Source: a phage. From it: a stretch of DNA of 64,000 nucleotides. The translations under genes and the position numbers were made by a program. The notes under the pieces are model-generated. The model did no database searches. It had not been told where the DNA came from and saw only the letters and a list, made by a program, of their open reading frames with translations. Location of the stretch: sequence record PZ445430.1, one strand, 5' to 3'. Position 1 is the first letter of the stretch. The number at the start of each line of letters is the position of its first letter. Positions 17,846 through 31,768 of this stretch are shown piece by piece.

Positions 17846-17917
17846 GCCGTCCTAGTATAAACGGTAATATCAAACCGTAACTGGTGGAAGATGCAGGTTC
17901 GAATCCTGCGGTCGGAA
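17846..17917 (+). ncRNA. tRNA-like element
   Basis: Canonical T-arm GCAGGTTCGAATCCTGC; acceptor and anticodon stems do not pair; no CCA. Confidence 0.3.
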
Positions 17918-19707: not shown

Positions 19708-19730
19708 TAGTTACACGTAATCTTCGAACC

Positions 19731-19948: not shown

Positions 19949-19978
19949 ATATTTATAAATTTGAGAGAGGAATCAAAT

Positions 19979-21034: not shown

Positions 21035-21035
21035 T

Positions 21036-21713
21036 ATGACTAACTATCTTGTAAATGACTTTAAAAACTGGAAACCTTTGGAATATCTGTGGCTGTTTAT
21101 AGCAGTCGCCTTTATTAGTTTAGCAAACTATAATGGTACAGCTCTAGATTGGGCTACTGCAATAACCAATGTGGTTTGTGTTATTCTGGTTGCAAAAGGA
21201 CGTGTTTCCAACTATATTTGGGGCTTAGTGGGTGTTCTTACATATGGTATTACAGCTTTAAACGCAGATCTTTATGGTAACGCTGCACTAAACCTGCTAT
21301 ACTACGTTCCTATGCAGTTTTATGGAATGTACTTATGGCATAAAAATAAGCCAAGTAATCTGCCAGATGTTCCAACTAAGTTTCTGACTAAAGCCCAAGC
21401 TCTGCTGACTCTAGGGATTCTAGCAGTAGCCACGTTAGGGTATGGTAGTTTCTTAGCTACTACAGCTGATCCATTCCCAATGCTCGATGCATTTACTGCG
21501 GTTGGTAGTGTGATCGCTATGTGGCTTATGGTTAAGCAGTATGCCGAGCAGTGGCTGATCTGGATTGCTATTAACATTGGTACTGTGTACATTTGGCTTG
21601 TAACTGCTCAATCTACAGGTGCATCTTATGCAATCCTAGCAATGTGGCTAGTATTCTTAGGTAACTCTATTATGGGAGCCTATAAAGGATACTTTGTACG
21701 CGTTAACAAATAA
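21036..21713 (+). CDS. pnuC: PnuC-like nicotinamide riboside transporter
   Basis: About 226 aa polytopic membrane protein coupled to nadR-like gene. Confidence 0.65.
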   Translation: MTNYLVNDFKNWKPLEYLWLFIAVAFISLANYNGTALDWATAITNVVCVILVAKGRVSNYIWGLVGVLTYGITALNADLYGNAALNLLYYVPMQFYGMYLWHKNKPSNLPDVPTKFLTKAQALLTLGILAVATLGYGSFLATTADPFPMLDAFTAVGSVIAMWLMVKQYAEQWLIWIAINIGTVYIWLVTAQSTGASYAILAMWLVFLGNSIMGAYKGYFVRVNK

Positions 21714-21722
21714 AGTAGTTAT

Positions 21723-21745
21723 AGCCCTCGCTTAGAGGGCTATTA
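21723..21745 (+). terminator. rho-independent terminator
   Basis: Hairpin agccctc-gctta-gagggct then T-rich. Confidence 0.5.
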
Positions 21746-21760
21746 TACAGAAATTTTCAC

Positions 21761-21789
21761 TTGCTTAATATAGAAAATTTCTGTATAAT
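21761..21789 (+). promoter_or_regulatory. early promoter (TTGCTT-17-TATAAT)
   Basis: -35 at 21761-21766, -10 at 21784-21789. Confidence 0.6.
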
Positions 21790-21819
21790 ATATTTATAAA
21801 TTCGAGAGAGGAATCAAAC

Positions 21820-22116
21820 ATGAAACGCATTGTACTTGCATTGACTCTAGTATCTACTTCTGTATTTGCTGCTCCGCAACAGGAACTTTGTCAAGTTCAG
21901 GTTTGTAATAAGCTAGAACGATTTACTCTAAACATTTGGTCCCATATTAAAGATAATATGGGTGAACAGTGTTTTGATATTGTTCTGCCAAAAGAACAGG
22001 CTATTCCTGGTGCTGTTCTTAGCTCAGAATCACGTTGGTGGCAGGGTTCTTCTATCAATCCAACTAAGAAGTCAGTGACACGTATCAAACAAGTATATCA
22101 GTGCAAGGTTCAGTAA
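21820..22116 (+). CDS. secreted protein
   Basis: Signal peptide MKRIVLALTLVSTSVFAAP. Confidence 0.5.
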   Translation: MKRIVLALTLVSTSVFAAPQQELCQVQVCNKLERFTLNIWSHIKDNMGEQCFDIVLPKEQAIPGAVLSSESRWWQGSSINPTKKSVTRIKQVYQCKVQ

Positions 22117-22124
22117 AATTTCAC

Positions 22125-22153
22125 TTGCTTAATGTCGAAATTTTCTGTATAAT
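22125..22153 (+). promoter_or_regulatory. early promoter (TTGCTT-17-TATAAT) ahead of tRNA genes
   Basis: -35 at 22125-22130, -10 at 22148-22153. Confidence 0.6.
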
Positions 22154-22167
22154 ATATTCATAAATTC

Positions 22168-22261
22168 GGAAGATTAACCCTAATGGTAAGGGAGCTGTTT
22201 GCTAAACAGCCAGTAGCTGTGGAGACACGGTGTGCCAGTTCGAATCTGGCATCTTCCTCCA
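22168..22261 (+). tRNA. tRNA-Ser(GCT)
   Basis: Acceptor ggaagat/atcttcc; anticodon arm gctgt-TTGCTAA-acagc; long variable arm; CCA encoded. Confidence 0.75.
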
Positions 22262-22266
22262 GATTT

Positions 22267-22344
22267 GGTTCTCAAGCTCATTTGGTATGAGCCGTCGCCT
22301 CATAAGCGAAAGGTAGGTAGGTTCGAATCCTCCGGGAGCCACCA
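22267..22344 (+). tRNA. tRNA(CAT), Met or Ile-lysidine
   Basis: T-loop TTCGAAT; anticodon loop CTCATAA; CCA encoded. Confidence 0.65.
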
Positions 22345-22361
22345 ATTAATTAGGAGACTAT

Positions 22362-22547
22362 ATGTCACGCTTTCGAGAAATTGCTCAAGAGCTAGAAGAA
22401 TGTATGTGTACTGAATGTTGGGGTTCTGGCACTCAAAATGATGCTGAACCTGGGGACATTTTCTATAACGAATGGGAATGTCCTACCTGTAAAGGTTCTG
22501 GCATTAACCCTAATTATGCAATTTCTTTTGATATTGAGCGAGGCTAA
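22362..22547 (+). CDS. small Cys-rich (zinc-ribbon-like) protein
   Basis: AGGAG RBS; CxxC..CxxC pattern. Confidence 0.5.
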   Translation: MSRFREIAQELEECMCTECWGSGTQNDAEPGDIFYNEWECPTCKGSGINPNYAISFDIERG

Positions 22548-22548
22548 A

Positions 22549-22887
22549 ATGGATATTTTTACAACTCCGGCAGTCAACCTTTTAGGTGTAGGTCTGTTCC
22601 AAGCTACCATCTATCGTATTGATGATACCACAGATGTAGTAACGTTCATTGTACCAGAGTTCTTCCTAGAAAAGTTCTTTGAAGAGTTTGAGCAGTTTCG
22701 TGAAGAACACAATGCTCATTCCGATATGGAAGATCTAGCAGCTATGTTCCCTGCGGTTTACGGCTATATCTTTGAAGGTAATGGCCTAGATCTTAATAAA
22801 TCTGAACTCGTTGAACTTAACTGGGGCATCAATTTTGAAGTTGGCTCTCCATTCCCTCGATATTTCCAGGGTTTAGAGATTCGCTAA
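22549..22887 (+). CDS. hypothetical protein
   Basis: Internal ATG of track ORF 22438..22887 with GAGG RBS. Confidence 0.5.
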   Translation: MDIFTTPAVNLLGVGLFQATIYRIDDTTDVVTFIVPEFFLEKFFEEFEQFREEHNAHSDMEDLAAMFPAVYGYIFEGNGLDLNKSELVELNWGINFEVGSPFPRYFQGLEIR

Positions 22888-22895
22888 GATTACAT

Positions 22896-22972
22896 GGGGG
22901 TGTAATCGAATTGGCATAGGTACTGGACTTAAAATTCAGGTTTTGTGGGTTCGAATCCCACCACCCCTACCA
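22896..22972 (+). tRNA. tRNA-Leu(TAA), short type-I-like
   Basis: Acceptor gggggtg/cacccct; anticodon arm ctgga-CTTAAAA-ttcag; CCA encoded. Confidence 0.55.
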
Positions 22973-22987
22973 AATTAAGGAAATAAA

Positions 22988-23131
22988 ATGAAAGCTATTA
23001 AGAAAGCACTGCGTAAATTTATGTACTGTCGTTTTCATAGCATCAAGGCTTCAACTAATGGTACGACTTACGATCGCTATGATCCTAAGTTTGGCTTACA
23101 CTCTAAACAACTGGAGAAAACAAATGGCTAA
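22988..23131 (+). CDS. small hypothetical protein (47 aa)
   Basis: AAGGAAA RBS. Confidence 0.3.
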   Translation: MKAIKKALRKFMYCRFHSIKASTNGTTYDRYDPKFGLHSKQLEKTNG

Positions 23132-23330
23132 TCCTGAAATTACGGCACAACGCTTTATGCTGAAAGGAATTATTGCTGAAGCAGGCATGACAGAAGAAGT
23201 TGCAGATTTTCAAAAGCAATTCCTCAATATTCTCACTCAAGCCAAAGAGCTAGGAGAGAAAGAACATGGCGCGGCTATTATGGCAATCACATTGGTTGGG
23301 CTTGATCTGGCTGAAGAATCAGGAGTTTAA
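23124..23330 (+). CDS. hypothetical protein
   Basis: Internal ATG of track ORF 23058..23330 with GGAGAAAA RBS. Confidence 0.45.
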   Translation: MANPEITAQRFMLKGIIAEAGMTEEVADFQKQFLNILTQAKELGEKEHGAAIMAITLVGLDLAEESGV

Positions 23331-23360
23331 CTCCTCCAAGCAGAAATTTTAAAAATGTAC

Positions 23361-23390
23361 TTGCTTTTTACTTAAGATTTCTGCTATAAT
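23361..23390 (+). promoter_or_regulatory. early promoter (TTGCTT-18-TATAAT)
   Basis: -35 at 23361-23366, -10 at 23385-23390. Confidence 0.55.
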
Positions 23391-23419
23391 AGTTATATAA
23401 GTTGATGAGAGGAATCAGA

Positions 23420-23692
23420 ATGTTAAAACGTTTTGCAGCAACTGGTATTGAAAGCTCAGTATGTAAATCCTGGGGTGGTTGGGAAGGTGAGATCGAGTGG
23501 CTTTATTTCTACAATGTAGAACTTCTTCCAGAGATCAAAGCTCAATGTATTGAGGCTGGTATGGCTCCTGATGCTACGGCTGATGTTGAAATCAGCATGA
23601 ATAAGCTAGAGGGTCGAGTAGTCACTGTTACTGATGAAGGTGAAGAGGTATTCGAACTTCCATTCACTTTGAAAGTCACTCCTGGCTTCTAG
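23420..23692 (+). CDS. hypothetical protein
   Basis: ORF with GAGAGG RBS. Confidence 0.5.
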   Translation: MLKRFAATGIESSVCKSWGGWEGEIEWLYFYNVELLPEIKAQCIEAGMAPDATADVEISMNKLEGRVVTVTDEGEEVFELPFTLKVTPGF

Positions 23693-23731
23693 TAACTGAT
23701 ACAGCACTGAGCAAGTTCTTTAAAATCTTAC

Positions 23732-23760
23732 TTGCTCAGTCCTTCAAAACTTGATATAAT
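23732..23760 (+). promoter_or_regulatory. early promoter (TTGCTC-17-TATAAT) ahead of tRNA block
   Basis: -35 at 23732-23737, -10 at 23755-23760. Confidence 0.55.
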
Positions 23761-23885
23761 AGTTATCTAATTTGGAAAACATATCTGAATGAGAAGTAAC
23801 TAAGCGAGTTGCTTTTAGGGGTAAAGTCAGGATAGCCTGAAATATTCCACCTTGAGTTTAACCGACTTACTTTTCATTCAAATAT

Positions 23886-23966
23886 GGGGGATTGGCTCAG
23901 TGGCGACGGCGCCTGGCTGTAGACCGGGTATATCACGCGGAGGTTCGAGTCCTCCATCTCCCACCA
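23886..23966 (+). tRNA. tRNA-Tyr(GTA)
   Basis: Acceptor gggggat/atctccc; anticodon arm cctgg-CTGTAGA-ccggg; T-loop TTCGAGT; CCA encoded. Confidence 0.7.
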
Positions 23967-23974
23967 AAATTAAT

Positions 23975-24049
23975 GCACCTATCGTCTAATGGTTAGGACA
24001 TCAGGATTTCAATCTGAGAATCGGAGTTCAATTCTCCGTGGGTGTGCCA
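23975..24049 (+). tRNA. tRNA-Glu(TTC)
   Basis: Anticodon loop ATTTCAA; T-loop TTCAATT; CCA encoded. Confidence 0.65.
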
Positions 24050-24058
24050 ATTAATAAT

Positions 24059-24129
24059 TGGGGTACGCATAGGTTGCTAGTGGGCCTCCAAAACCCATGA
24101 AAAGGTTTCGAATACCTTTACCCCTGCCA
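24059..24129 (+). tRNA. tRNA-Trp(CCA)
   Basis: Anticodon loop CTCCAAA; short with mismatched first acceptor pair; CCA encoded. Confidence 0.5.
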
Positions 24130-24135
24130 ATATTT

Positions 24136-24210
24136 GCACCTTTAGCTGAGATGGATTAGCGCTTGCCTGAAGAGCTTGAGAGGTTCGTTCAATTCGAACA
24201 GGGTGCACCA
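24136..24210 (+). tRNA. tRNA-Phe(GAA)
   Basis: D-stem gctg/tagc; anticodon loop CTGAAGA with two U-U mismatches in stem; CCA encoded. Confidence 0.55.
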
Positions 24211-24227
24211 ATTTGAAGGAGATGCTG

Positions 24228-24500
24228 ATGCATCCTGAAAACTTCTTTATATACTGTACTAGTCTTTTGCTTAAACGCCGGATTAATAAAGTATATCACT
24301 ACAGAGCTAGTCAACAGCCTTATGTTTATGATTCTAGTGGAGATCATATTCCACTTGAGCAACTAGGGACTGATTATATGGTTTTGAAGCACTTTAATGA
24401 GGCGAAGATCTCTAGCGTTCATAACCGACAAAACTCTAAAACGTGGTGGCATAAGAAGCGTAAGAAAGGCATCAAATTTCTTAAAAATGTAGTTGCTTAA
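24228..24500 (+). CDS. hypothetical basic protein
   Basis: ATG 6 nt after AAGGAG; 3' end overlaps -35 of next promoter. Confidence 0.4.
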   Translation: MHPENFFIYCTSLLLKRRINKVYHYRASQQPYVYDSSGDHIPLEQLGTDYMVLKHFNEAKISSVHNRQNSKTWWHKKRKKGIKFLKNVVA

Positions 24501-24521
24501 ATCCTTAAAGTTCTGTATAAT
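24493..24521 (+). promoter_or_regulatory. early promoter (TTGCTT-17-TATAAT)
   Basis: -35 at 24493-24498, -10 at 24516-24521. Confidence 0.55.
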
Positions 24522-24549
24522 TATTACATAAATTGAACTGGAGAACTAG

Positions 24550-24738
24550 ATGAAAGCACCTAAACCGAAATTAGTTAAGTTCGACTGCTGTGATACTGAA
24601 ATCTTATTTACTAAGTTTGGTGAATTTAAGATGTGTGAATGTGGAACATGTGGTTACGATCATGGTGATGGATATTATTGCAGAACCCTAGGGCCTTCTG
24701 AACTAATCCACTTCTCATGGCCGGAAAGTAAAGAATAA
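24550..24738 (+). CDS. small Cys-rich protein
   Basis: GGAG RBS; multiple Cys pairs. Confidence 0.5.
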   Translation: MKAPKPKLVKFDCCDTEILFTKFGEFKMCECGTCGYDHGDGYYCRTLGPSELIHFSWPESKE

Positions 24739-24740
24739 TA

Positions 24741-24816
24741 CGACCGTTGGCTGAATGGCTTAGGCGGAGGCCTGCAAAACCTCCTTATGTGAGTTCGAAT
24801 CTCATGCGGTCGTCCA
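24741..24816 (+). tRNA. tRNA-Cys(GCA)
   Basis: Acceptor cgaccgt/gcggtcg; anticodon loop CTGCAAA; CCA encoded. Confidence 0.65.
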
Positions 24817-24968
24817 ATTTGCTGAAAGAATTGTTAAATCAATTCAGGCACGCGTAGGAACACTGCCTCAGTAATTGAAAGATGAGGCACGGTTTGGAGA
24901 GGTATGCCGCTACACGCTACGGTGCTAACTCCGTCTAGGTGAAAATCCTAGTCAGCAATATAAATTTA

Positions 24969-25054
24969 GGGTCGTTGGCTGAACGGTTTAAGCGCCGGAC
25001 TGTTAATCCGTATCCGCAAGGATAAAGTAGGTTCAACTCCTACACGGCCCGCCA
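24969..25054 (+). tRNA. tRNA-Asn(GTT) candidate with extra 15-nt arm
   Basis: Acceptor gggtcgt/acggccc; anticodon loop CTGTTAA; extra hairpin atcc-gcaa-ggat; CCA encoded. Confidence 0.5.
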
Positions 25055-25081
25055 ATTTCACTAACAACTGAGGAAATAGAT

Positions 25082-25267
25082 ATGACAACTCGTGCAATTG
25101 CTCTACTAGAAGCTGATCGTGATAATCTGATTAATAATATTAAGGTTCGTGGTAATATTATTAAGGCTCTGAAAGCTGAACTTCTTGAAGAACTTCAAGG
25201 TCAAGTAGAGCGTCGTGAAGCTCTAAAAGAGGTTGAGGAAGCTATCGAAAAACTCAAAACTGAGTAA
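25082..25267 (+). CDS. hypothetical coiled-coil protein
   Basis: ORF with GAGGAAA RBS. Confidence 0.5.
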   Translation: MTTRAIALLEADRDNLINNIKVRGNIIKALKAELLEELQGQVERREALKEVEEAIEKLKTE

Positions 25268-25275
25268 ACAAATTA

Positions 25276-25352
25276 TGCGATCGGGGCTGGCTTGGTAATG
25301 GTACTCCCCTGTCACGGGAGAGAATGTGGGTTCGAATCCCATCGGTCGCGCC
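25276..25352 (+). tRNA. tRNA-Asp(GTC)
   Basis: Acceptor gcgatcg/cggtcgc; anticodon arm ctccc-CTGTCAC-gggag; CCA encoded. Confidence 0.75.
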
Positions 25353-25429
25353 AATTTTTGCAGGACGCTGGTATAGATAACCACCGCGTGGGAAGTGTCT
25401 ATATTTAGAGCACTGCAAAACATAATAAT

Positions 25430-25505
25430 ACATCCATAGCTCAATGGTTAGAGCTACCGCCTCTTAAGCGGAGGGTTCTAGGTTCAAGTCCTAGTGGGTG
25501 TACCA
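25430..25505 (+). tRNA. tRNA-Lys(CTT)
   Basis: D-stem gctc/gagc; anticodon loop CTCTTAA; T-loop TTCAAGT; CCA encoded. Confidence 0.6.
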
Positions 25506-25587
25506 AACATCAGAGCAGCGTGATGTACTGCAAAGACCCAAAGTCCGGGGTGGACTTCTTGATTCAAAGGAGCAGGCATTAATTATC

Positions 25588-25709
25588 ATTCTAGCGTGGT
25601 GGAGAGGGGACACCAGCTTGCCGAGGGTAGAAGCTCGTTCGATTCGAGTGAAAGAATGGTTCTCGTAAATCCGCACAAGTGATAGCAGGTTCAAGTCCTG
25701 CCTAGATTG
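25588..25709 (+). ncRNA. degenerate tRNA-like element (about 120 nt)
   Basis: T-arm gcagg-TTCAAGT-cctgc and second T-loop-like ctcg-TTCGATT-cgag; pairable acceptor 122 nt apart; no CCA. Confidence 0.25.
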
Positions 25710-25718
25710 ACTTATTAT

Positions 25719-25792
25719 GCGTTCGTAGTTAAAAGGTATAATTTTTGGTTGCCAACCAGAAGTTGAGGGTTCGATTCCCTCCGACCGCACCA
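25719..25792 (+). tRNA. tRNA-Gly(GCC)
   Basis: Anticodon arm tttgg-TTGCCAA-ccaga; T-loop TTCGATT; CCA encoded. Confidence 0.65.
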
Positions 25793-26040
25793 AATTTAGG
25801 TTTCTGCTTCCTAGAGAACTGACTCCTAGATAAACAAGGCGATGAGTTTCCGGCCGGTTCTAGTCGCTGAAAATCCTCCCGACCAGGTAGGTGTAAGTAA
25901 ACGAAAGTTTACTTATTAAGTAAGTCCGACACATCGGCGGGTGTGTTCTAGTACTTAAAGAAGGTCTCGCAAACTTTCTCGCTAGCATGAGTTCATAGCT
26001 CGGTGACTTACCTAATAAGTAAATTTATTAAAAAATGTAG

Positions 26041-26069
26041 TTGCTATTTAGCTTAATTCTCTGTATAAT
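26041..26069 (+). promoter_or_regulatory. early promoter (TTGCTA-17-TATAAT)
   Basis: -35 at 26041-26046, -10 at 26064-26069. Confidence 0.6.
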
Positions 26070-26101
26070 ATATTTTATAAAGTGAGTTAACAAAGAATAT
26101 T

Positions 26102-26179
26102 CTCCGTGTAGCTCAGTTTGGCCAGAGCGTTTCGTTTGGGGCGATAGGGTCGGGGGTTCAAATCCTCCCACGGAGACCA
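26102..26179 (+). tRNA. tRNA-Pro(TGG)
   Basis: Acceptor ctccgtg/cacggag; anticodon loop TTTGGGG; CCA encoded. Confidence 0.65.
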
Positions 26180-26185
26180 AACAAT

Positions 26186-26263
26186 TGCGGGTTAGATCTC
26201 TGGTAGAGATCGCTAGTCTCATAAGCTAGAAAGAGGTAGGTTCGATTCCTACACCCGCTTCCA
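26186..26263 (+). tRNA. tRNA(CAT), Met or Ile-lysidine
   Basis: D-stem gatc/gatc; anticodon arm ctagt-CTCATAA-gctag; CCA encoded. Confidence 0.65.
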
Positions 26264-26284
26264 ATTTAATAGAAGGATTTCGAA

Positions 26285-26449
26285 ATGAAATTATTTCGTT
26301 TAAAAGTAAGTGATCTACGTTCTAGCAAAGATCGTAAGAAGTATCCACTAGCTCACTATGGTAAAGATGAAAACGAAGTGATGGCGGAATTTGGTATTAA
26401 TCATCCTTACTTGAAAGTCTACTCTATTAAAGAAGTATACATGTATTAA
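26285..26449 (+). CDS. small hypothetical protein (54 aa)
   Basis: AGAAGGA RBS; lies between tRNA genes. Confidence 0.35.
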   Translation: MKLFRLKVSDLRSSKDRKKYPLAHYGKDENEVMAEFGINHPYLKVYSIKEVYMY

Positions 26450-26451
26450 AT

Positions 26452-26529
26452 TGACCGTTAACTCAACTGGATAAGAGTACCGAGCTTTTACCTCGTAGGT
26501 TCTGGGTTCGAATCCCAGACGGTCAACCA
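26452..26529 (+). tRNA. tRNA-Lys(TTT)
   Basis: Acceptor tgaccgt/acggtca; D-stem actc/gagt; anticodon loop CTTTTAC; CCA encoded. Confidence 0.65.
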
Positions 26530-26546
26530 ATTTAAAGGAATTTGTT

Positions 26547-26864
26547 ATGAATATTAACAAAGTTCTAGAAACAATATCAGAAATGTCTGGTAGAGCTGGA
26601 AAACGCTTTACTGAACTATGCATTAAAAATCAAAAAGTACCAGAACATCAATGTCATTATTGTCGAGACTGTGAACAATACCATGAAATGTGTATGGTTG
26701 AAGATTGGGTCTGGGATCAGATAAGAAAAGAGCAACCCAAAGATATTGTTCTATGTTTTACTTGTATGGAACGACGTTTAGGACGTAAAATTACGCTCAA
26801 AGATCTTAAACATGTTCCCTGTAACGCTCCTTACTTCATTGGCTTTAGAATGGAGAGATTTTAA
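26547..26864 (+). CDS. Cys-rich hypothetical protein
   Basis: AAAGGAA RBS; CHYCRDC and CFTC motifs. Confidence 0.5.
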   Translation: MNINKVLETISEMSGRAGKRFTELCIKNQKVPEHQCHYCRDCEQYHEMCMVEDWVWDQIRKEQPKDIVLCFTCMERRLGRKITLKDLKHVPCNAPYFIGFRMERF

Positions 26865-26997
26865 TGACTATCTGGTTTTATTTAATGAAGCAGAAAATAA
26901 GAGATTCCTATGTATTCTCTGCTGACTTTACAATAGGTATGTTTATAGCAGGTTTCTGTGAATTTGTAGTTGAAGCCTACATCATAGGAAGTCTTTT

Positions 26998-27071
26998 GCT
27001 CGGTTAGTTTAATGGGAGAACCCCGTCTTTACACGGCGGTTGCGATAGTTCGATTCTATCACCGAGTACCA
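26998..27071 (+). tRNA. tRNA-Val(TAC)
   Basis: Anticodon arm ccgtc-TTTACAC-ggcgg; T-loop TTCGATT; CCA encoded. Confidence 0.7.
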
Positions 27072-27096
27072 ATTAACTCAAAATAAGGAATTGCAA

Positions 27097-27450
27097 ATGC
27101 AATTATCAAGCAAGGTTCAAGGCTATTTCGGGCATGTAACAATGGAGTTCGCTATCTCTAAAGGTTGGGACTTCGAACAAGATCTAGCTGAATTCTACAA
27201 AGATATTGATCTGAATGTACCGTACATAGGACTCTCTACTGGTCAAGAGATCACAGAAGGCGATGTGTTCAAGGCAAGTCAAGGTGAGGTAACACCTAGT
27301 TTTGCCGAGTTCTGGTTAGGAATTACTCTGAAAGATGATGCACCGGATGGTGGTGTGGTTATGCAGAGTATGCACTCTGGAAGCTCTGATTACCTTTTCG
27401 TTAGTGACGTTAAGGAAATACAAGAAATCTGCAAAAATGTACTTGCTTGA
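27097..27450 (+). CDS. hypothetical protein
   Basis: AAGGAA RBS; 3' end overlaps -35 of next promoter. Confidence 0.5.
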   Translation: MQLSSKVQGYFGHVTMEFAISKGWDFEQDLAEFYKDIDLNVPYIGLSTGQEITEGDVFKASQGEVTPSFAEFWLGITLKDDAPDGGVVMQSMHSGSSDYLFVSDVKEIQEICKNVLA

Positions 27451-27471
27451 TGCTTAATTTCTTGTTATAAT
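27443..27471 (+). promoter_or_regulatory. early promoter (TTGCTT-17-TATAAT)
   Basis: -35 at 27443-27448, -10 at 27466-27471. Confidence 0.55.
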
Positions 27472-27734
27472 ATTTATATAAATCGATGAGGAGAAATCCT
27501 CATCAAAGTTCACTAAGGTATTAGCTCGACCTAGGACTGGCTGCCAACAAGCACAGTTGCAATTAGACCCCTAATGGCGGGGGGATACTTTGCAATAAGT
27601 TCTAGATTAGTCCACTAGATTCAGCGGCAACTGAATAGTGTATCGGGTTTGTGAAGAGCGGTTATCCTCTACTGGCTAATGTCTGAGGGTAATACGCACA
27701 CCGAGCTAATAGCCTTAGTAAACTTAAAGATTTT

Positions 27735-27808
27735 GGGGATATAGTTTAATGGTAGAACATCTGCCTTGCACGCAGAAGACGAGGGTTCAACTCCCTCTTT
27801 CTCCACCA
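27735..27808 (+). tRNA. tRNA-Ala(TGC)
   Basis: Anticodon arm tctgc-CTTGCAC-gcaga; T-loop TTCAACT; CCA encoded. Confidence 0.7.
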
Positions 27809-27813
27809 AATTC

Positions 27814-27889
27814 GGGGTCATAGGTTATTTGGTTAAACTTACTGCCTTGCAAGCAGTGGAACTCAGTTCAATTCTGAGTGACTCCACCA
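27814..27889 (+). tRNA. tRNA-Ala(TGC), second copy
   Basis: Anticodon arm actgc-CTTGCAA-gcagt; T-loop TTCAATT; CCA encoded. Confidence 0.6.
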
Positions 27890-27908
27890 AACAAATTAAG
27901 GAAATAAT

Positions 27909-28127
27909 ATGGTATTCTTAGTAGCCTCTGTAGTTCTTGCAGCTTTAGCACTAGCTATCTATTTTAGAACTGTTAAAGATTTAGCTAAAGAAAAGAAAAC
28001 TTTCTTTACTGATTATTCTTGGGGCGCTCCATATACTGTCCGCTTTATCAGCTTAGAAGCTATGCTGATAATGGTATTCAGTGGCGTAGGTTCCATTGTT
28101 GCGGGATTATTATTTATTTCTAACTAA
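27909..28127 (+). CDS. small membrane protein
   Basis: AAGGAAA RBS; two hydrophobic helices. Confidence 0.5.
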   Translation: MVFLVASVVLAALALAIYFRTVKDLAKEKKTFFTDYSWGAPYTVRFISLEAMLIMVFSGVGSIVAGLLFISN

Positions 28128-28134
28128 ATAAAAT

Positions 28135-28215
28135 GGGGATGTGGCGAAATTGGCAGACGCGCTAGATTTAGGTTCTAGTCTCCGGGTGTGGGTTCGAGTC
28201 CCTCCATCCCTACCA
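28135..28215 (+). tRNA. tRNA-Leu(TAG)
   Basis: Anticodon arm ctaga-TTTAGGT-tctag; 9-nt variable region; CCA encoded. Confidence 0.65.
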
Positions 28216-28389
28216 AACATTGGATTAACTCATGATGAAAACTCCTATAACTGATATCTGGTTAGCTGTTAATACGTTAACTAAAGAGTATGTGTTTATA
28301 GAGTATGGTCAGAGGTATGACCAAAAGATGTATAATCTCATACTTCCAGTATCCGCTAATGAAGTTTATGATTTAATCCTGAGATCTAC

Positions 28390-28482
28390 GGAAGAGCAAA
28401 TCGACTTGGTGACGAAAACCACTTGGAAAGTGGCTGACTTGTGAAAGCAGGCTTGAGAGTTCGAATCTCTCTTCTTCCGCCA
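28390..28482 (+). tRNA. tRNA-Ser(GGA)
   Basis: Acceptor ggaagag/ttcttcc; anticodon loop TTGGAAA; long variable arm; T-loop TTCGAAT; CCA encoded. Confidence 0.55.
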
Positions 28483-28496
28483 AACAAAATTTATAG

Positions 28497-28591
28497 GGTA
28501 GGTCAATCCAACGGCTGGCGCTGGACTCCGACTTGAAATCGGTTGATCGTAGTGATACGGTGTAAGGGTTCGATCCCCTTACCTACCCCCA
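28497..28591 (+). tRNA. tRNA-Ser(TGA)
   Basis: Acceptor ggtaggt/acctacc; anticodon loop CTTGAAA; long variable arm; CCA encoded. Confidence 0.6.
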
Positions 28592-28596
28592 AATCT

Positions 28597-28728
28597 TGAA
28601 GTATGCCGGAATCGGTAGACGGGGCTTCCTAAAGGGCGTAAGAGGAACATCCACTCCTCATAAGATACCCGAAAACGAGGCTGAGATAAATGGTCTATCT
28701 CGTGAAGGTTCAAGTCCTTCTGCTTCTT
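28597..28728 (+). ncRNA. tRNA-like element with Leu-type D-arm (about 130 nt)
   Basis: D-arm ccgg-AATCGGTAGAC-gggg, T-arm gaagg-TTCAAGT-ccttc, pairable acceptor; extra 45 nt internally; no CCA. Confidence 0.25.
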
Positions 28729-28906
28729 GATATTCAATGGCTCAAAGAGTAACGGTGCACCTTTCTAGAGAATTTTCTGGGCGAGAATCCAGAAGTAATC
28801 AACTAGTTGTTAGTGTGATGAGTTTCGGAGAGCCGCCACAATTGAAGTCTTTAGAATGGGTATCGCCCTTTAGCCCCTCCGAAAGGGATAACTAGAGATT
28901 TCAATT

Positions 28907-28983
28907 GTGGCTATATCATAATTGGTTAATGATCCTGATTGTGAATCAGGCCTATGTGGATTCGAATTCCACTAGCCACCCCA
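28907..28983 (+). tRNA. tRNA-His(GTG)
   Basis: Acceptor gtggcta/tagccac; anticodon arm cctga-TTGTGAA-tcagg; CCA encoded. Confidence 0.75.
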
Positions 28984-28989
28984 AATATT

Positions 28990-29064
28990 GCGTCCTTATT
29001 TCAATGGAAAGAATGTAAAGCTACGAACTTTACGATCGGGGTTCGATTCCCTGAGGATGCACCA
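28990..29064 (+). tRNA. tRNA-Arg(ACG)
   Basis: Anticodon arm taaag-CTACGAA-cttta; T-loop TTCGATT; CCA encoded. Confidence 0.75.
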
Positions 29065-29088
29065 ATTAACTTATATAGGAAATAAAAT

Positions 29089-29289
29089 ATGGCTGATTTC
29101 TGCAAAGAATGCTCTATCGATATGTGGGGCAAAGATACTGGTGATCTTTCTGGTCTGATTACAGAAGCCGAAGTTAAAGAAGGCTATGGTGCTGTTGTAA
29201 TCTGTGAAGGTTGTGGTATTATTCGTGTTGATCATAATGGTAAACGTCTAGAAGAACCAGATCCAATTGCCACGGTTCCTGTAGAATAA
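29089..29289 (+). CDS. small Cys-rich protein
   Basis: AGGAAA RBS; CKEC..CEGC. Confidence 0.5.
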   Translation: MADFCKECSIDMWGKDTGDLSGLITEAEVKEGYGAVVICEGCGIIRVDHNGKRLEEPDPIATVPVE

Positions 29290-29296
29290 AAATTAT

Positions 29297-29372
29297 TGGG
29301 ATGTAGATCAATTGGCAGATCGTCGGCCTCTGACTCCGAAGGTTCCACGTTCGATCCGTGGCATCCCAGCCA
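29297..29372 (+). tRNA. tRNA-Gln(CTG)
   Basis: D-stem gatc/gatc; anticodon loop CTCTGAC with C-U mismatch closing the stem; CCA encoded. Confidence 0.65.
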
Positions 29373-29378
29373 AATACT

Positions 29379-29454
29379 TGGAGAGTAGTGTAACGGTTAG
29401 CACAACGGCCTTTGACTCCGTTAATGGTAGGTTCGATTCCTCCTTCTCCAGCCA
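29379..29454 (+). tRNA. tRNA-Gln(TTG)
   Basis: Anticodon loop CTTTGAC with same C-U mismatch; CCA encoded. Confidence 0.65.
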
Positions 29455-29460
29455 ATTTAT

Positions 29461-29535
29461 GCGTGATTAGTTCAGTGGCTAGAATAACTGGCTTCCAACC
29501 AGTAGACACGAGTTCGACTCTCGTATCCCGCACCA
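29461..29535 (+). tRNA. tRNA-Gly(TCC)
   Basis: Anticodon arm actgg-CTTCCAA-ccagt; T-loop TTCGACT; CCA encoded. Confidence 0.7.
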
Positions 29536-29550
29536 ATTTAAGGAAACGTT

Positions 29551-29757
29551 ATGGACGTTTTTGAGTTTCGTAATAAAAACCCTAATAGGCGAGTTTTAAT
29601 TATTGGTGAAACATACCGAGCTTATGAGCAGGAAGACGGTTCGGTTTTATTAAATGATGAAAAGCAAGGCTATAGCTTTCATCCGGAAGAAACATATGAA
29701 GAATTTCGTACTAAGTTTCTTTTACCAGACTGGCTAGCAATAGCTGAGCAAAGATAA
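29551..29757 (+). CDS. hypothetical protein
   Basis: AAGGAAA RBS. Confidence 0.5.
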   Translation: MDVFEFRNKNPNRRVLIIGETYRAYEQEDGSVLLNDEKQGYSFHPEETYEEFRTKFLLPDWLAIAEQR

Positions 29758-29764
29758 CCCGAAG

Positions 29765-29923
29765 ATGGCTGATAATCTAAAGGTAGATAAACGAATGAAG
29801 CACGTTGAGGTTGAGTTGGGTGAAGAACGTTTAAAACTCTCCTTCGAATTCTTACAACAGTTGGCTATGACAGTAATGTCTGATAAGTCTCCTGTATTTG
29901 AAAAAGAAATTCCGTTGAAATAA
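29765..29923 (+). CDS. small hypothetical protein (52 aa)
   Basis: Short ORF, weak RBS. Confidence 0.3.
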   Translation: MADNLKVDKRMKHVEVELGEERLKLSFEFLQQLAMTVMSDKSPVFEKEIPLK

Positions 29924-29933
29924 CGGGTTTATT

Positions 29934-30008
29934 GCTCCTAAAGCATTGCTGGCGATGCAGTTGCCTTGTAAGCATCTGAACCGGGTTCGATTCCTGGTGG
30001 GAGCACCA
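29934..30008 (+). tRNA. tRNA-Thr(TGT)
   Basis: D-stem gcat/atgc; anticodon loop CTTGTAA; T-loop TTCGATT; CCA encoded. Confidence 0.65.
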
Positions 30009-30023
30009 AATTTAAAAATTCAT

Positions 30024-30052
30024 TTGCCTTCTCTCTTATTTCTTGTTATAAT
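30024..30052 (+). promoter_or_regulatory. early promoter (TTGCCT-17-TATAAT)
   Basis: -35 at 30024-30029, -10 at 30047-30052. Confidence 0.55.
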
Positions 30053-30082
30053 ATTTATATAAATTAATGAGAGGGAAACCAA

Positions 30083-30376
30083 ATGAAACGTTATCTTTCT
30101 GTCGTGTTCCAAACGGGTGGTCAACGCTACACTTACGAATTTCCTGAGTCTTGGAAAATAAAAGAAGGTGATCAAGTTGTTGTGCTAACACCTCGTGAAG
30201 GCTTCAAAGTAGTAACGGTTAAACAAGTATTTCCAAAAGATCACGAACCATCTAAGTCTATTCAGTACAAGATGATTCACGGTCTGGTACGAAAAGTACC
30301 TAGAACAGAAGTCGAAGTAGATAAAACTGGTGAAGCTAAATACCAGTATACCTCTTACTTAGACGAGTTGTTATAA
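30083..30376 (+). CDS. hypothetical protein
   Basis: GAGAGGGAAA RBS. Confidence 0.5.
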   Translation: MKRYLSVVFQTGGQRYTYEFPESWKIKEGDQVVVLTPREGFKVVTVKQVFPKDHEPSKSIQYKMIHGLVRKVPRTEVEVDKTGEAKYQYTSYLDELL

Positions 30377-30582
30377 TGAGAATTACTTTCACAGAAAAGA
30401 TTATGGGCAATGGTGTTATGATCATTACCGCATGGGATGGTAATCAGTGGTGTAGTGTTTCAGGTATTAAGCCTGAAGAACAAACACTAGAAAATATCTC
30501 AAAGATTAAGCGAAGAATGGCAGAACGTGCACGACTTCCAGGTGCGCCTAGAAATGGTAAACGTTCTGCAATTAAATGTTAA
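30376..30582 (+). CDS. hypothetical protein
   Basis: Coupled to upstream gene (ATGA overlap). Confidence 0.45.
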   Translation: MRITFTEKIMGNGVMIITAWDGNQWCSVSGIKPEEQTLENISKIKRRMAERARLPGAPRNGKRSAIKC

Positions 30583-30583
30583 T

Positions 30584-30660
30584 GCTTCGGTAGCTTAGCG
30601 ATCTAAAGCACTCGGCTGATAACCGAGAGATCGGGGGTTTAAATCCCTCCCGGAGTACCA
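30584..30660 (+). tRNA. tRNA-Ile(GAT)
   Basis: D-stem gctt/aagc; anticodon arm ctcgg-CTGATAA-ccgag; CCA encoded. Confidence 0.75.
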
Positions 30661-30756
30661 AATTTAGGAAGTAAGACTATGCGTCCAGGAAAGTTTAAAA
30701 AAGCTAATTGGTCTAAAGAGTATAAAGAATACTTACTTAGTCTAGTAAAACATAAT

Positions 30757-30832
30757 AGTTAGTTGGCAGAGAGGTTATGCACCTCCTTCATACGGAGCGA
30801 CTACAGTGGTTCAAATCCACTACTAACTACCA
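30757..30832 (+). tRNA. tRNA(CAT), third copy
   Basis: Acceptor agttagt/actaact; anticodon loop TTCATAC; T-arm agtgg-TTCAAAT-ccact; CCA encoded. Confidence 0.65.
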
Positions 30833-31759: not shown

Positions 31760-31768
31760 TTAATAATA

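What the first reader, a model, noticed from the sequence alone, without database searches (positions are those of the whole stretch)
25588..25709. Degenerate tRNA-like elements without CCA inside the tRNA cluster
Three loci (17846-17917, 25588-25709, 28597-28728) have canonical T-arms and pairable acceptor ends but lack CCA and are too long or mispaired for a normal tRNA. The third has a Leu-type D-arm AATCGGTAGAC and about 45 extra internal nt. Candidates are pseudo-tRNAs, insertion-bearing tRNAs, or small stable RNAs derived from tRNAs.
Basis: seen in the sequence. Interest (0 to 1): 0.5.

Follow-up and report, generated by a model that had tools for sequence, protein, structure and literature searches.

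The report
Phage tRNA-shaped RNA with folded insert
The locus is the phage T5 "RNA2" gene: a full tRNA cloverleaf whose anticodon loop is replaced by a conserved, folded 55-base insert, so it cannot decode; its existence was already annotated but its function is unknown.

Summary
The window is Escherichia phage SuperGirl, a T5-like phage. All three loci have good T-arms and pairable ends but no encoded CCA, whereas all 29 genuine tRNAs of the cluster encode CCA.

Locus 25588-25709 is the ortholog of "RNA2", which the T5 and BF23 GenBank records call a tRNA-like stable RNA of unknown function. It is not degenerate. Alignment of 22 homologs shows a complete cloverleaf frame. 92.5% of pair cells are standard pairs, against 64% after shuffling, and 24 of 27 pairs show compensatory change.

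The 7-nt anticodon loop is replaced by a conserved 55-nt insert. The insert holds a second T-arm and a long-range Watson-Crick pair that covaries through all four pair types. No reading frame is conserved, so the annotated ORF over it is probably spurious.

The family is absent from Rfam. It also occurs in T4-like Acinetobacter phages, a Paraglaciecola phage and two uncultured contigs. There the acceptor stem can be missing, but the insert is kept.

My best reading is a tRNA-scaffolded, non-decoding structured RNA that presents the insert to a trans-acting partner. A decoy for a tRNA-binding factor is the leading guess and is untested. Locus 28597-28728 is T5 RNA1 and has the same design.

The parts
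25588..25709 (+). Whole RNA2-family gene (122 nt). It lies between tRNA-Lys(CUU) at 25430-25505 and tRNA-Gly(GCC) at 25719-25792, on the same strand as the tRNA cluster.
   Evidence: 91% identical over 125 nt to BF23 rna2. The T5 and BF23 records annotate it as a tRNA-like (stable) RNA with unknown functions. Covariance model R1 scores it 130.4 bits, E 2.7e-31.
25588..25594 (+). Acceptor stem 5' strand, ATTCTAG. It pairs with 25702-25708 (CTAGATT), with a U.U mismatch at pair 2:71 in this phage.
   Evidence: The stem covaries: TCTAG/CTAGA, GGGTACT/GGTATCC, GACTTTG/CAAAGTC, ACTGACC/GGTCAGT, AGACAAT/ATTGTCT. All 7 pairs show changes on both sides.
25597..25615 (+). D-arm: TGGTG - GAGAGGGGA - CACCA.
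   Evidence: All 5 pairs show compensatory change, e.g. TGGTG/CACCA, TGCCG/CGGCA, AGCTC/GAGCT, TGACT/AGTCA.
25616..25620 (+). Anticodon-stem 5' strand, GCTTG. It pairs with 25676-25680 (CAAGT).
   Evidence: 99% of cells are paired and all 5 pairs show compensatory change. Variants seen: GCCTC/GAGGT, CCCAT/ATGGG, CGCTG/CAGTG, CCCTA/TAGGG, CTCCG/CGGAG, GCTGT/GCAGT.
25621..25675 (+). Conserved 55-nt insert that takes the place of the 7-nt anticodon loop: CCGAGGGTAGAA + inner T-arm + GAAAGAA + TGGTT-CTCGTAA-ATCCG + CA.
   Evidence: It is the most conserved block across T5-like, Acinetobacter T4-like, Paraglaciecola and uncultured phages. Ordinary tRNAs align to the model with exactly this block deleted.
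25633..25649 (+). Inner (second) T-arm: GCTCG - TTCGATT - CGAGT.
   Evidence: 97% of cells are paired and 4 of 5 pairs show compensatory change. Variants: CTCG/CGAG, CTGG/CCAG, TTGG/CCAA, ATGG/CCAT, TACGG/CCGTA.
25630..25631 (+). G25630 and A25631 of the insert's 5' segment. They form a long-range pairing with C25664 and T25663 in the loop C-N-CGUAA.
   Evidence: The pair A25631-T25663 covaries: A-U 13, U-A 3, C-G 3, G-C 1, and one row that is ambiguous in alignment. The adjacent G-C pair is invariant in 21 of 21 distinct rows.
25657..25673 (+). Possible short hairpin TGGTT-CTCGTAA-ATCCG. In this phage its loop looks like a tRNA-Thr(CGU) anticodon loop.
   Evidence: RNAalifold predicts only UGG/CCG. 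There is no compensatory support, and position 4 is U.U in 17 of 20 sequences. Loop position 33 is A, C or G in other phages and pairs with the insert's 5' segment, so this is not a decoding loop.
25685..25701 (+). Outer (canonical-position) T-arm: GCAGG - TTCAAGT - CCTGC.
   Evidence: 99% of cells are paired and 3 of 5 pairs show compensatory change.
28597..28728 (+). It is a type-II (Leu-like) tRNA frame whose anticodon loop is replaced by an insert of about 48 nt. That insert contains the hairpin GAGGA-ACATCCAC-TCCTC (28642-28659).
   Evidence: 83% identical to BF23 rna1. Across 6 homologs there are compensatory changes in the acceptor, anticodon stem, inner hairpin and variable arm.
17846..17917 (+). 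It has a 6-nt loop (GUAACU) on a 3-4 bp stem in place of an anticodon arm.
   Evidence: Rfam tRNA score 29.3 bits against a threshold of 29. It maps within BF23 RNAX. Compensatory changes are seen in the acceptor (T5 against BF23) and in the short hairpin (Klebsiella phage). Other records call it tRNA-OTHER, tRNA-Ser or tRNA-Sec.

Best explanation
**What it is.** 25588-25709 is the SuperGirl ortholog of phage T5 RNA2, a non-decoding RNA built on a tRNA scaffold.

**Shown here.**
- It has a complete cloverleaf frame: acceptor, D-arm, anticodon stem, 4-nt variable loop and T-arm.
- The anticodon loop is replaced by a conserved 55-nt insert.
- The insert contains a second T-arm and a covarying long-range base pair, so it folds into a defined compact domain.

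**Inferred.**
- It is co-transcribed with the neighbouring tRNAs.
- The frame makes it a substrate for tRNA processing: RNase P at the 5' end, trimming at the 3' end, and possibly CCA addition. The frame also makes it stable.
- The insert is the working part and is presented to a trans-acting partner.

**Why I infer a partner that reads tRNA shape.** The T4-like Acinetobacter phages keep the elbow, the anticodon stem and the insert, but not the acceptor stem. The partner therefore most likely reads tRNA shape around the elbow and anticodon arm.

**Most likely mechanism (my guess).** RNA2 acts as a decoy or inhibitor for a tRNA-binding host factor, such as a tRNA-targeting defence nuclease or an anticodon-loop enzyme. 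This fits its position inside a phage region known to counter tRNA-cleaving immunity.

**Confidence by step.**
- Identity and architecture: about 0.9.
- A functional structured RNA rather than a relic: about 0.85.
- Decoy mechanism: about 0.25.
For: **Identity.**
- The window is 100% identical to phage SuperGirl.
- The locus is 91% identical to BF23 rna2 over 125 nt.
- T5 and BF23 annotate RNA2 as a tRNA-like stable RNA.
- 425 phage records hold a homolog.

**Structure.**
- On 22 homologs, 92.5% of pair cells are standard pairs, against 63.7% after shuffling (0 of 500 shuffles reach it) and 34-43% when partners are slid.
- 24 of 27 pairs show compensatory change.
- RNAalifold independently recovers the same five helices.
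- Genuine tRNAs match the family model end to end with only the insert deleted.

**The insert is a folded domain.** The inner T stem covaries. The long-range pair shows all four Watson-Crick types.

**Selection acts on the insert.** It is conserved in Acinetobacter phages 133, Acj9, ZZ1 and AB1I1M-1, in Paraglaciecola GD virus 1, in an IMG/VR contig and in a metagenome contig, while the frame sequences differ completely.

**It does not decode.** Loop position 33 is paired and variable, position 2 after the anticodon stem is always C, and no CCA is encoded although all 29 real tRNAs encode it.

**It does not code for protein.** No reading frame is open across homologs.

**Context.** The T5 tRNA-rich region is dispensable in the laboratory but protects against PARIS and retrons that cleave tRNAs (PMC11464382, PMC12409363, PMC11555353).

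**A second RNA of the same design.** RNA1 at 28597-28728 is built the same way.
Against: - No expression or end-mapping data were seen for SuperGirl. 'Stable RNA' rests on the T5/BF23 GenBank notes, and I could not find the underlying paper in the library.
- Single-sequence folding does not favour the comparative fold. The minimum-energy structure is -32 to -35 kcal/mol and the comparative fold is -21 to -25. The z-score against shuffles is only -0.34.
- SuperGirl's own acceptor stem has a U.U mismatch.
- T5 mutants lacking the region are viable. In the published screens, evasion of PARIS and retrons mapped to tRNA-Lys, tRNA-Thr, tRNA-Asn, tRNA-Tyr and ORF75, not to RNA2 (PMC11464382, PMC12409363, PMC11555353).
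- No partner, target or ligand is identified. The decoy step is an analogy.
Confidence: 0.6

Rival explanations
1. It is a decaying pseudo-tRNA. A former tRNA gene acquired an insertion and now drifts without function.
For: No CCA is encoded. ARAGORN and Rfam reject it. The acceptor stem has a mismatch in SuperGirl. The region is dispensable in the laboratory (PMC11464382).
Against: Compensatory changes occur in 24 of 27 pairs. The insert is more conserved than the frame, and it is shared by phage families whose frame sequences are unrelated. A tertiary pair covaries through four pair types. Homologs are found in 425 records.
Confidence: 0.04
2. It is an intron-containing tRNA. The 55-nt insert is spliced out to yield a functional tRNA.
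For: The insert sits exactly in the anticodon loop, where bacterial group I and archaeal tRNA introns sit. The rest is a good cloverleaf. Pantoea phage AAS21 encodes CCA after its copy.
Against: - 55 nt is far below group I size, and Rfam finds no intron or ribozyme match.
- ARAGORN with introns allowed makes no call.
- The residues flanking the insert give no U33 or purine-37 loop, and position 2 is always C.
- The implied anticodons differ between homologs.
- The Acinetobacter copies lack an acceptor stem, so they could not be charged.
- The insert is the conserved part, which is the opposite of what is seen for introns.
Confidence: 0.04
3. It is purely a cis-acting processing mark. The tRNA-like shape recruits RNase P or RNase E to cut the polycistronic transcript, as in tRNA punctuation, and the released RNA has no function of its own.
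For: It lies in a dense array of tRNAs and small ORFs on one strand. The frame has the acceptor-plus-T-stem stack that RNase P needs. The Acinetobacter copies are delimited by neighbouring tRNAs.
Against: A processing mark needs only the acceptor and T minihelix. Yet the acceptor is the part that is lost in Acinetobacter phages, while the insert, with its own T-arm and tertiary pair, is kept almost invariant. The copy in L034 has no ARAGORN-detectable tRNA gene in the 10.3 kb fetched around it.
Confidence: 0.12
4. It is a base-pairing regulatory small RNA. Single-stranded conserved stretches such as GAAAGAAUGGUU or GUAAAUCCGCA pair with a host or phage RNA, and the tRNA frame only stabilises it.
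For: About 25 nt of near-invariant sequence is not involved in covarying helices. RNA1 and RNA2 share AUCC(G/A)C in a loop-like context.
Against: No target was identified. Blastn of RNA2 (both strands, word 11, E<=1e-3) found no match in 5,426 complete E. coli genomes, but that search cannot detect 10-14-nt seed pairing. Conservation across Enterobacteria, Acinetobacter and Paraglaciecola would need an equally conserved target.
Confidence: 0.12
5. It is the protein-coding gene annotated in the SuperGirl record: bas29_0105, 25498-25668, 56 aa, GTG start.
For: The ORF exists and is annotated. Other records also place hypothetical ORFs over their copies.
Against: The ORF starts inside tRNA-Lys. 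A 1-nt indel in the D-loop shifts the frame in BF23, GSW6 and others, and every frame has stops in some homolog. The substitution pattern is that of paired RNA. T5 and BF23 annotate RNA here, not a CDS.
Confidence: 0.02

Closest known systems
Phage T5 / BF23 'RNA2' (misc_RNA rna2; AY543070 32959-33083; AJ604530 5701-5825)
   Same: It is the same gene: 91% identity over 125 nt, the same strand, and the same position directly upstream of tRNA-Gly(GCC). Those records describe it as a tRNA-like stable RNA with unknown functions.
   Different: Nothing essential differs. SuperGirl has a U.U mismatch at acceptor pair 2:71 and one extra D-loop base. The GenBank notes give no structure, no function and no relatives outside T5-like phages.
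   Same: The design is the same: a tRNA frame, no CCA, and the anticodon loop replaced by a conserved structured insert of about 48 nt, with covarying stems.
   Different: The frame is different (type II, Leu-like, with a long variable arm) and the insert is unrelated. Family model R1 hits RNA1 only at its T-arm, at 9.6 bits. RNA1 was found only in T5-like phages.
Phage T4 small stable RNAs: species 1 (rnaC, 139 nt) and species 2 (rnaD, 119 nt)
   Same: They are small stable RNAs of unknown function encoded inside a phage tRNA cluster. rnaC ends in a T-arm (CCGGG-TTCGAAT-CCCGG) and has tRNA-like ends.
   Different: There is no sequence or model similarity; model R1 gives no hit at E<=1e-7. The T4-like Acinetobacter phages carry the RNA2-type insert instead.
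tmRNA (SsrA)
   Same: A tRNA-like acceptor and T-arm domain with a large non-tRNA module in place of the anticodon arm, processed by tRNA enzymes (established knowledge).
   Different: RNA2 keeps a real D stem and anticodon stem. It has no tag reading frame or resume codon, it is about one third of the size, and ARAGORN finds no tmRNA. G3.U70 is not conserved: it is present in Kamaji but absent in Slocum and T5.
Bacterial Y RNA-like YrlA
   Same: A non-coding RNA that mimics the tRNA elbow, with a T-arm and D-arm (established knowledge).
   Different: The topology is reversed. In YrlA the terminal stem is the Ro-binding helix and the acceptor-like stem is capped. No Rfam family overlaps the locus at E<=10.
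Engineered 'tRNA scaffold' for expressing recombinant RNAs (Ponchon and Dardel 2007; from my own knowledge)
   Same: The architecture is identical: a foreign structured RNA is grafted onto the anticodon stem of a tRNA so that it is processed and protected like a tRNA.
   Different: That scaffold is man-made. RNA2 and RNA1 would be natural counterparts, but whether the frame serves this purpose here is inferred.

Membership tests
T5/BF23 RNA2 family | Sequence homology to the annotated rna2 over its full length | tested here: met
   91.3% identity over BF23 rna2 positions 1-125, mapping to window 25587-25712. The T5 and BF23 copies score 132-135 bits on model R1, and the window copy scores 130.
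T5/BF23 RNA2 family | Position in the tRNA cluster, directly upstream of tRNA-Gly(GCC) on the tRNA strand | tested here: met
   The window order is tRNA-Asp, tRNA-Lys(CUU), RNA2, tRNA-Gly(GCC). The BF23 order is tRNA-Asp, ORF, RNA2, tRNA-Gly(GGC codon).
T5/BF23 RNA2 family | Accumulates as a stable small RNA in infected cells | not testable with these tools
   Only the GenBank note 'stable RNA' is available. No RNA data were accessible.
Canonical tRNA (Rfam RF00005) | Cloverleaf with acceptor, D, anticodon and T stems | tested here: met
   All four stems are present and covary. Real tRNAs align to the family model end to end.
Canonical tRNA (Rfam RF00005) | 7-nt anticodon loop with U33 and purine 37; score above the Rfam or ARAGORN thresholds | tested here: not met
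   The loop is replaced by 55 nt. There is no RF00005 hit even at E<=10, and no ARAGORN call with or without introns.
Canonical tRNA (Rfam RF00005) | 3' CCA, which every tRNA of this phage encodes | tested here: not met
   GAC follows the acceptor stem. 27 of 27 tRNAs, plus the 2 tRNA-Ser genes, have CCA. Post-transcriptional CCA addition cannot be tested here.
Group I intron-containing tRNA | An intron of at least about 200 nt with a group I core in the anticodon loop | tested here: not met
   The insert is 55 nt, and Rfam gives no intron or ribozyme match.
tmRNA | tRNA-like domain plus tag-peptide reading frame and pseudoknots | tested here: not met
   ARAGORN finds no tmRNA. The only weak Rfam permuted-tmRNA hit lies elsewhere, at 27751-27947. 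No frame is conserved.
YrlA / Y RNA | Ro-binding terminal helix with a tRNA-like module; Rfam model match | tested here: not met
   No Rfam family overlaps 25588-25709 at E<=10. The terminal helix is an acceptor-type stem that abuts a T-arm.
Protein-coding gene (bas29_0105) | Reading frame conserved among homologs | tested here: not met
   Frameshifts and stops occur in every frame across 20 homologs.

The most novel reading that the evidence does not exclude
RNA2, and by analogy RNA1, would be a natural 'tRNA-scaffolded' anti-defence RNA. Its folded insert sits where the anticodon loop should be. This would turn a tRNA shape into an uncleavable decoy or inhibitor for a tRNA-targeting immune nuclease or another anticodon-arm-binding host factor. 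The module has been exchanged between T5-like and T4-like phages. This would add RNA decoys to the known strategy in which phage tRNAs replace cleaved host tRNAs.

Weak hints only:
- The RNA lies in the T5 tRNA-rich region, which counters PARIS and retron tRNases.
- The parts kept in all lineages are the D-loop/elbow and the anticodon stem, the same parts that the AlphaFold 3 model of AriB contacts (PMC12409363).
- The authors of that paper raise the possibility that overexpressed viral tRNAs inhibit AriB by competition.
Probability: 0.2. Interest if true: 0.85.

Novelty: new member of a known kind. Interest (0 to 1): 0.5.

Why it matters
Phage tRNA clusters are now understood as counter-measures to bacterial immunity that cleaves tRNAs. 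The small tRNA-like RNAs lying between those tRNAs have been carried in the T5 annotation as 'unknown function' since the AY543070/AJ604530 records, and modern annotation ignores them or mis-calls them as ORFs, tRNA-OTHER, tRNA-Sec or tRNA-Leu.

This work shows that RNA2 is a strongly constrained, covariation-supported structured RNA with a defined architecture. It is absent from Rfam. Its core is shared by unrelated phage families infecting Escherichia, Salmonella, Serratia, Pantoea, Pectobacterium, Acinetobacter and Paraglaciecola.

That turns an old curiosity into a testable object:
- a 122-nt RNA in a BASEL-collection phage (locus tags bas29_*; taken to be Bas29);
- a specific base pair to mutate and restore;
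- a clear knock-out and complementation design against panels of defence systems.

It also gives a model that can be used to correct annotation in hundreds of genomes.

Tried and rejected
1. **Single-sequence folding.** The minimum-energy fold gets the acceptor and outer T-arm but misfolds the middle, and the z-score is only -0.34. It is uninformative on its own.
2. **Rfam at E<=10.** Nothing overlaps the locus.
3. **A 14-base pattern scan of genome contigs and viral contigs.** It was far too unspecific. Only L034 was a real new member. I reused 100 of the chance loci as a negative control.
4. **A 20-base pattern in metagenomes.** One new member, L251.
5. **My early idea that the 5' strand ATTCT pairs with AGAAT after the inner T-arm, giving two fused tRNA remnants.** Rejected: in Kamaji, L034, L251 and AAS21 the 5' strand covaries with the 3' terminal strand instead.
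6. **An early register for pairing CGAGGG with TTCTCG inside the insert.** Not consistent across homologs. It is replaced by the 2-bp long-range contact G25630-C25664 / A25631-T25663.
7. **A 5-bp hairpin TGGTT/ATCCG.** Not supported by covariation.
8. **Short ORF ATG-GTT-CTC-GTA-AAT-CCG-CAC-AAG-TGA inside the insert.** Not conserved.
9. **Similarity of CGTAAA..CGCAC to the 16S rRNA region around position 570.** This rests on the 16S sequence as I recall it and was not tested. The CGCAC part is not conserved in Acinetobacter phages, so I judge it to be chance.
10. **Neighbouring ORFs in L034 and L251.** By inspection of the ORF lists (no homology search), no recurring protein partner stood out.
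11. **Homology to T4 rnaC/rnaD.** None.
12. **E. coli chromosomes, prophages and plasmids.** No homolog in 5,426 genomes.
13. **Literature searches for a description of T5 RNA1/RNA2.** Nothing in the held library beyond the defence papers cited.
Full report
**Origin and context.** The 5-kb stretch I compared (window 24500-29500) is 100% identical to Escherichia phage SuperGirl (MZ501105; Demerecviridae, Epseptimavirus; locus tags bas29_*). Window coordinates equal record coordinates minus 47303. Positions 17.8-30.8 kb hold the T5-type tRNA cluster, all on the + strand. ARAGORN finds 27 tRNAs and Rfam finds 28. The finding lies between tRNA-Lys(CUU) at 25430-25505 and tRNA-Gly(GCC) at 25719-25792. 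The SuperGirl record places a 56-aa GTG-start ORF (25498-25668) over it.

**Checking the observation.** The description is accurate.
- All three loci have textbook T-arms and pairable termini.
- None is followed by CCA, whereas all 27 solid Rfam tRNAs and both tRNA-Ser genes end in encoded CCA.
- ARAGORN makes no call at 25588-25709, with or without introns allowed. No Rfam family overlaps it even at E<=10.
- Locus 17846-17917 is a 72-nt element that only just reaches the Rfam tRNA threshold, at 29.3 bits against 29.

**What the loci are called elsewhere.** BLAST against phage records shows that the homologous 125 nt is annotated in T5 (AY543070 32959-33083) and BF23 (AJ604530 5701-5825) as misc_RNA 'rna2 / RNA2, tRNA-like (stable) RNA with unknown functions'. 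BF23 rna2 maps to window 25587-25712 at 91% identity. The third locus is 'RNA1'. The first lies inside the roughly 0.8-kb 'RNAX'. So the objects were noticed by the T5 annotators, but with no structure or function attached. Most modern records leave them unannotated, or call them hypothetical ORFs, tRNA-OTHER, tRNA-Ser, tRNA-Sec or tRNA-Leu.

**Architecture of RNA2.** Homologs exist in 425 phage records. Unexpectedly, they also occur outside the T5-like phages:
- T4-like Acinetobacter phages 133, Acj9, ZZ1, AB1I1M-1 and AB2I2;
- Paraglaciecola Antarctic GD virus 1;
- a 164-kb IMG/VR contig (L034) and a metagenome contig (L251);
- more distant Demerecviridae infecting Pectobacterium, Serratia and Pantoea.

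Comparing about 20 distinct sequences gives one consistent fold. The elements in window coordinates are:

| Element | Coordinates | Sequence |
|---|---|---|
| Acceptor stem | 25588-25594 / 25702-25708 | ATTCTAG / CTAGATT |
| D-arm | 25597-25615 | TGGTG-GAGAGGGGA-CACCA |
| Anticodon stem (5 bp) | 25616-25620 / 25676-25680 | GCTTG / CAAGT |
| Variable loop | 25681-25684 | GATA |
| T-arm | 25685-25701 | GCAGG-TTCAAGT-CCTGC |
| Discriminator | 25709 | G |

Where a tRNA has its 7-nt anticodon loop, RNA2 has 55 nt (25621-25675). This insert consists of CCGAGGGTAGAA, a second T-arm GCTCG-TTCGATT-CGAGT (25633-25649), GAAAGAA, then TGGTT-CTCGTAA-ATCCG, then CA.

**Formal tests of the fold.**
- A covariance model built from the alignment (R1) scores the window copy 130 bits (E 3e-31). 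The other 40 family members scanned score 74-136 bits.
- Ordinary tRNAs of the cluster match the same model end to end at 16-27 bits with precisely the insert deleted. This shows that the frame is a true cloverleaf.
- In 0.93 Mb of unrelated viral DNA the only hit was 30.5 bits and 74 nt long, spanning the whole model as the cluster's ordinary tRNAs do.
- On the 22-sequence alignment, 92.5% of pair cells are standard pairs. The shuffled value is 63.7% (0 of 500 shuffles reach the observed value), and the slid-partner values are 34-43%. 24 of 27 pairs carry compensatory changes.
- Per stem, the paired fractions are 99% for the anticodon stem, 97% for the inner T stem and 99% for the outer T stem.
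- This alignment was fitted to the model, which favours the structure. However, my hand alignment gives the same counts, and RNAalifold recovers the same five helices on its own.

**The insert is a folded domain, not a loop.** A scan of all column pairs found that A25631, the 11th base of the insert, covaries with T25663, the variable N of the loop C-N-CGUAA. The counts are A-U 13, U-A 3, C-G 3 and G-C 1, plus one row that is ambiguous in alignment. The adjacent G25630-C25664 pair is invariant. Close relatives differ here: AB1I1M-1 has U-A and AB2I2 has C-G. So several independent double changes are needed to explain the pattern.

This has a consequence for the loop CUCGUAA. In SuperGirl it looks like a tRNA-Thr(CGU) anticodon loop. 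In fact its 'position 33' is a paired, freely varying base, so it is not a decoding loop. A 5-bp stem under that loop is not supported: there is U.U at one position in 17 of 20 sequences. Only UGG/CCG is predicted, and it never varies. The invariant GG at 25626-25627 is well placed to dock on the inner T-loop, as G18-G19 do in tRNA. That contact is inference only.

**What is conserved, and where.** In the Acinetobacter phages there is no convincing acceptor stem, and the D stem is weak. Only 4-6 nt separate the element from the flanking tRNAs. Yet the anticodon stem, the insert, the GG-containing D-loop and the outer T-arm are all kept. In T5-like phages and the uncultured contigs the whole frame is kept, but its sequence is free to change by compensation. 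Pantoea phage AAS21 is the only copy with an encoded CCA. Selection therefore acts on the insert plus the elbow and anticodon stem. The acceptor end looks like a processing and stability device.

**Rivals.**
- *Protein-coding.* No frame is open across homologs, and a 1-nt D-loop indel shifts the annotated frame.
- *Pseudo-tRNA.* Contradicted by the covariation and by conservation across phage families.
- *Intron-bearing tRNA.* The insert is too short for a group I intron and has no ribozyme match. The flanking residues never give a U33/purine-37 loop. The insert is the conserved part. Some copies cannot have an acceptor end.
- *tmRNA or YrlA.* No model match, different topology, no tag frame.
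- *T4 species 1 and 2 RNAs.* These are the classical analogue, being stable RNAs in a phage tRNA cluster with a T-arm in rnaC, but they are not homologous.
- *Host origin.* There is no copy in 5,426 complete E. coli genomes.

**How it most likely works.** Shown: a tRNA-framed RNA with a conserved, folded module in place of the anticodon loop.

Inferred:
- It is transcribed with the tRNAs. BF23 and T5 annotate promoters upstream of this run of genes on the same strand.
- It is released by RNase P and 3' trimming and stabilised by its tRNA shape. This is the same logic as the engineered 'tRNA scaffold' used to express recombinant RNAs (my own knowledge).
- The module then acts in trans.

The T5 tRNA-rich region is lost spontaneously without loss of viability. 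The T5Mos deletion 30661-38625 removes RNA2. The region matters on hosts carrying the tRNA-cleaving systems PARIS and retron Eco7 (retron Eco2 is also affected, but its effector's target is not stated in the sections read), and in those tests the active determinants were tRNA-Lys, tRNA-Thr, tRNA-Asn, tRNA-Tyr and ORF75 (PMC11464382, PMC12409363, PMC11555353). So RNA2 sits in an anti-defence island but has no assigned role.

My preferred mechanism is a decoy or inhibitor for a factor that reads the tRNA elbow and anticodon arm. Its probability is only about 0.25, because it rests on context and analogy. A cis-only processing role and a base-pairing sRNA role remain open.

**The other two loci.** RNA1 (28597-28728) follows the same design on a different frame:
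- a Leu-type D-arm and a long variable arm (28683-28701);
- an anticodon stem GCTTC/GAGGC (28624-28628 / 28677-28681) enclosing an insert of about 48 nt;
- within that insert, a covarying hairpin with the conserved loop ACAUCC(A/G)C.

Six homologs show compensatory changes in four stems. The 'intron' call is an artefact, since the implied anticodon differs between orthologs: aaa here and taa in JLBYU40.

Locus 17846-17917 is a conserved tRNA-like element inside RNAX. It has a 6-nt loop on a short stem. T5 and BF23 show a compensatory change in its acceptor stem, while SuperGirl's copy has two mismatches there.

**Verdict.** The locus is a new member (ortholog) of a known but uncharacterised kind, the T5 tRNA-like stable RNAs. 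The points I did not find in the T5/BF23 records or in the held literature are:
- the precise architecture;
- the covarying tertiary pair;
- the absence from Rfam;
- the spread of the insert into T4-like and other phages;
- the likely mis-annotation of ORFs over it.

Function remains unknown. Interest is moderate.

Noticed in passing
window 24059-24129: A tRNA-Trp(CCA) gene, 95.8% identical to the annotated BF23 tRNA-Trp. It is missed by ARAGORN, by Rfam and by the SuperGirl GenBank annotation. It has an unusual T-arm (AAGGT-TTCGAAT-ACCTT) and ends in CCA.
   Followed up: partly
window 28390-28482 and 28497-28591: tRNA-Ser(GGA) and tRNA-Ser(UGA) are annotated in the record. ARAGORN's default run misses them, and in Rfam they reach only sub-threshold tRNA-Sec scores of 26.5 and 38.3 bits.
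   Followed up: partly
window 25498-25668; also L009 1487-1717, L254 401-478, L255 316-483, L257 342-521: Hypothetical-protein ORFs are annotated over RNA2 homologs in several phage records. The SuperGirl ORF starts inside tRNA-Lys and its frame is not conserved. They are likely mis-annotations.
   Followed up: yes
window 17604-18449: This region is homologous to T5/BF23 'RNAX', a stable RNA of about 0.72-0.78 kb with unknown function that ends at tRNA-Arg(UCU). SuperGirl annotates two small ORFs here (17630-17791 on +, 17800-17970 on -), the latter overlapping the tRNA-like element.
   Followed up: partly
window 25793-26101 and 27519-27651: These stretches show partial homology to the BF23/T5 stable RNAs 'RNAIV' (25925-25976, 81%) and 'RNA 2H' (27519-27554 and 27599-27651, 97-100%). 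Both are unannotated in SuperGirl. BF23 RNAI, RNAIII and RNA3 gave no BLAST hit.
   Followed up: no
all tRNA 3' ends, window 18450-30832: Every genuine tRNA of the cluster ends in encoded CCA followed by A and then mostly A or T (CCAAWW). This suggests a shared 3' processing context.
   Followed up: no
window 25669-25675 and 28648-28655: The RNA2 and RNA1 inserts are otherwise unrelated, but both display AUCC(G/A)C in a loop-like context. It could be a shared recognition element or chance.
   Followed up: no
L011 308-426 versus L257 368-485: The Serratia phage Kamaji copy has G1-C72, G2-C71, G3.U70 and A73, which resembles the alanine identity set. Its close relative Slocum has G3-C70. So this is probably chance rather than a charging signal.
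   Followed up: partly
L252 about 370-400 and L256 about 370-395: In Acinetobacter phages AB1I1M-1 and AB2I2 a GC-rich hairpin followed by a T run (GGCATCTTTGGATGCCGTTT) lies directly upstream of the RNA2-like element. It may be a terminator or a processing site.
   Followed up: no
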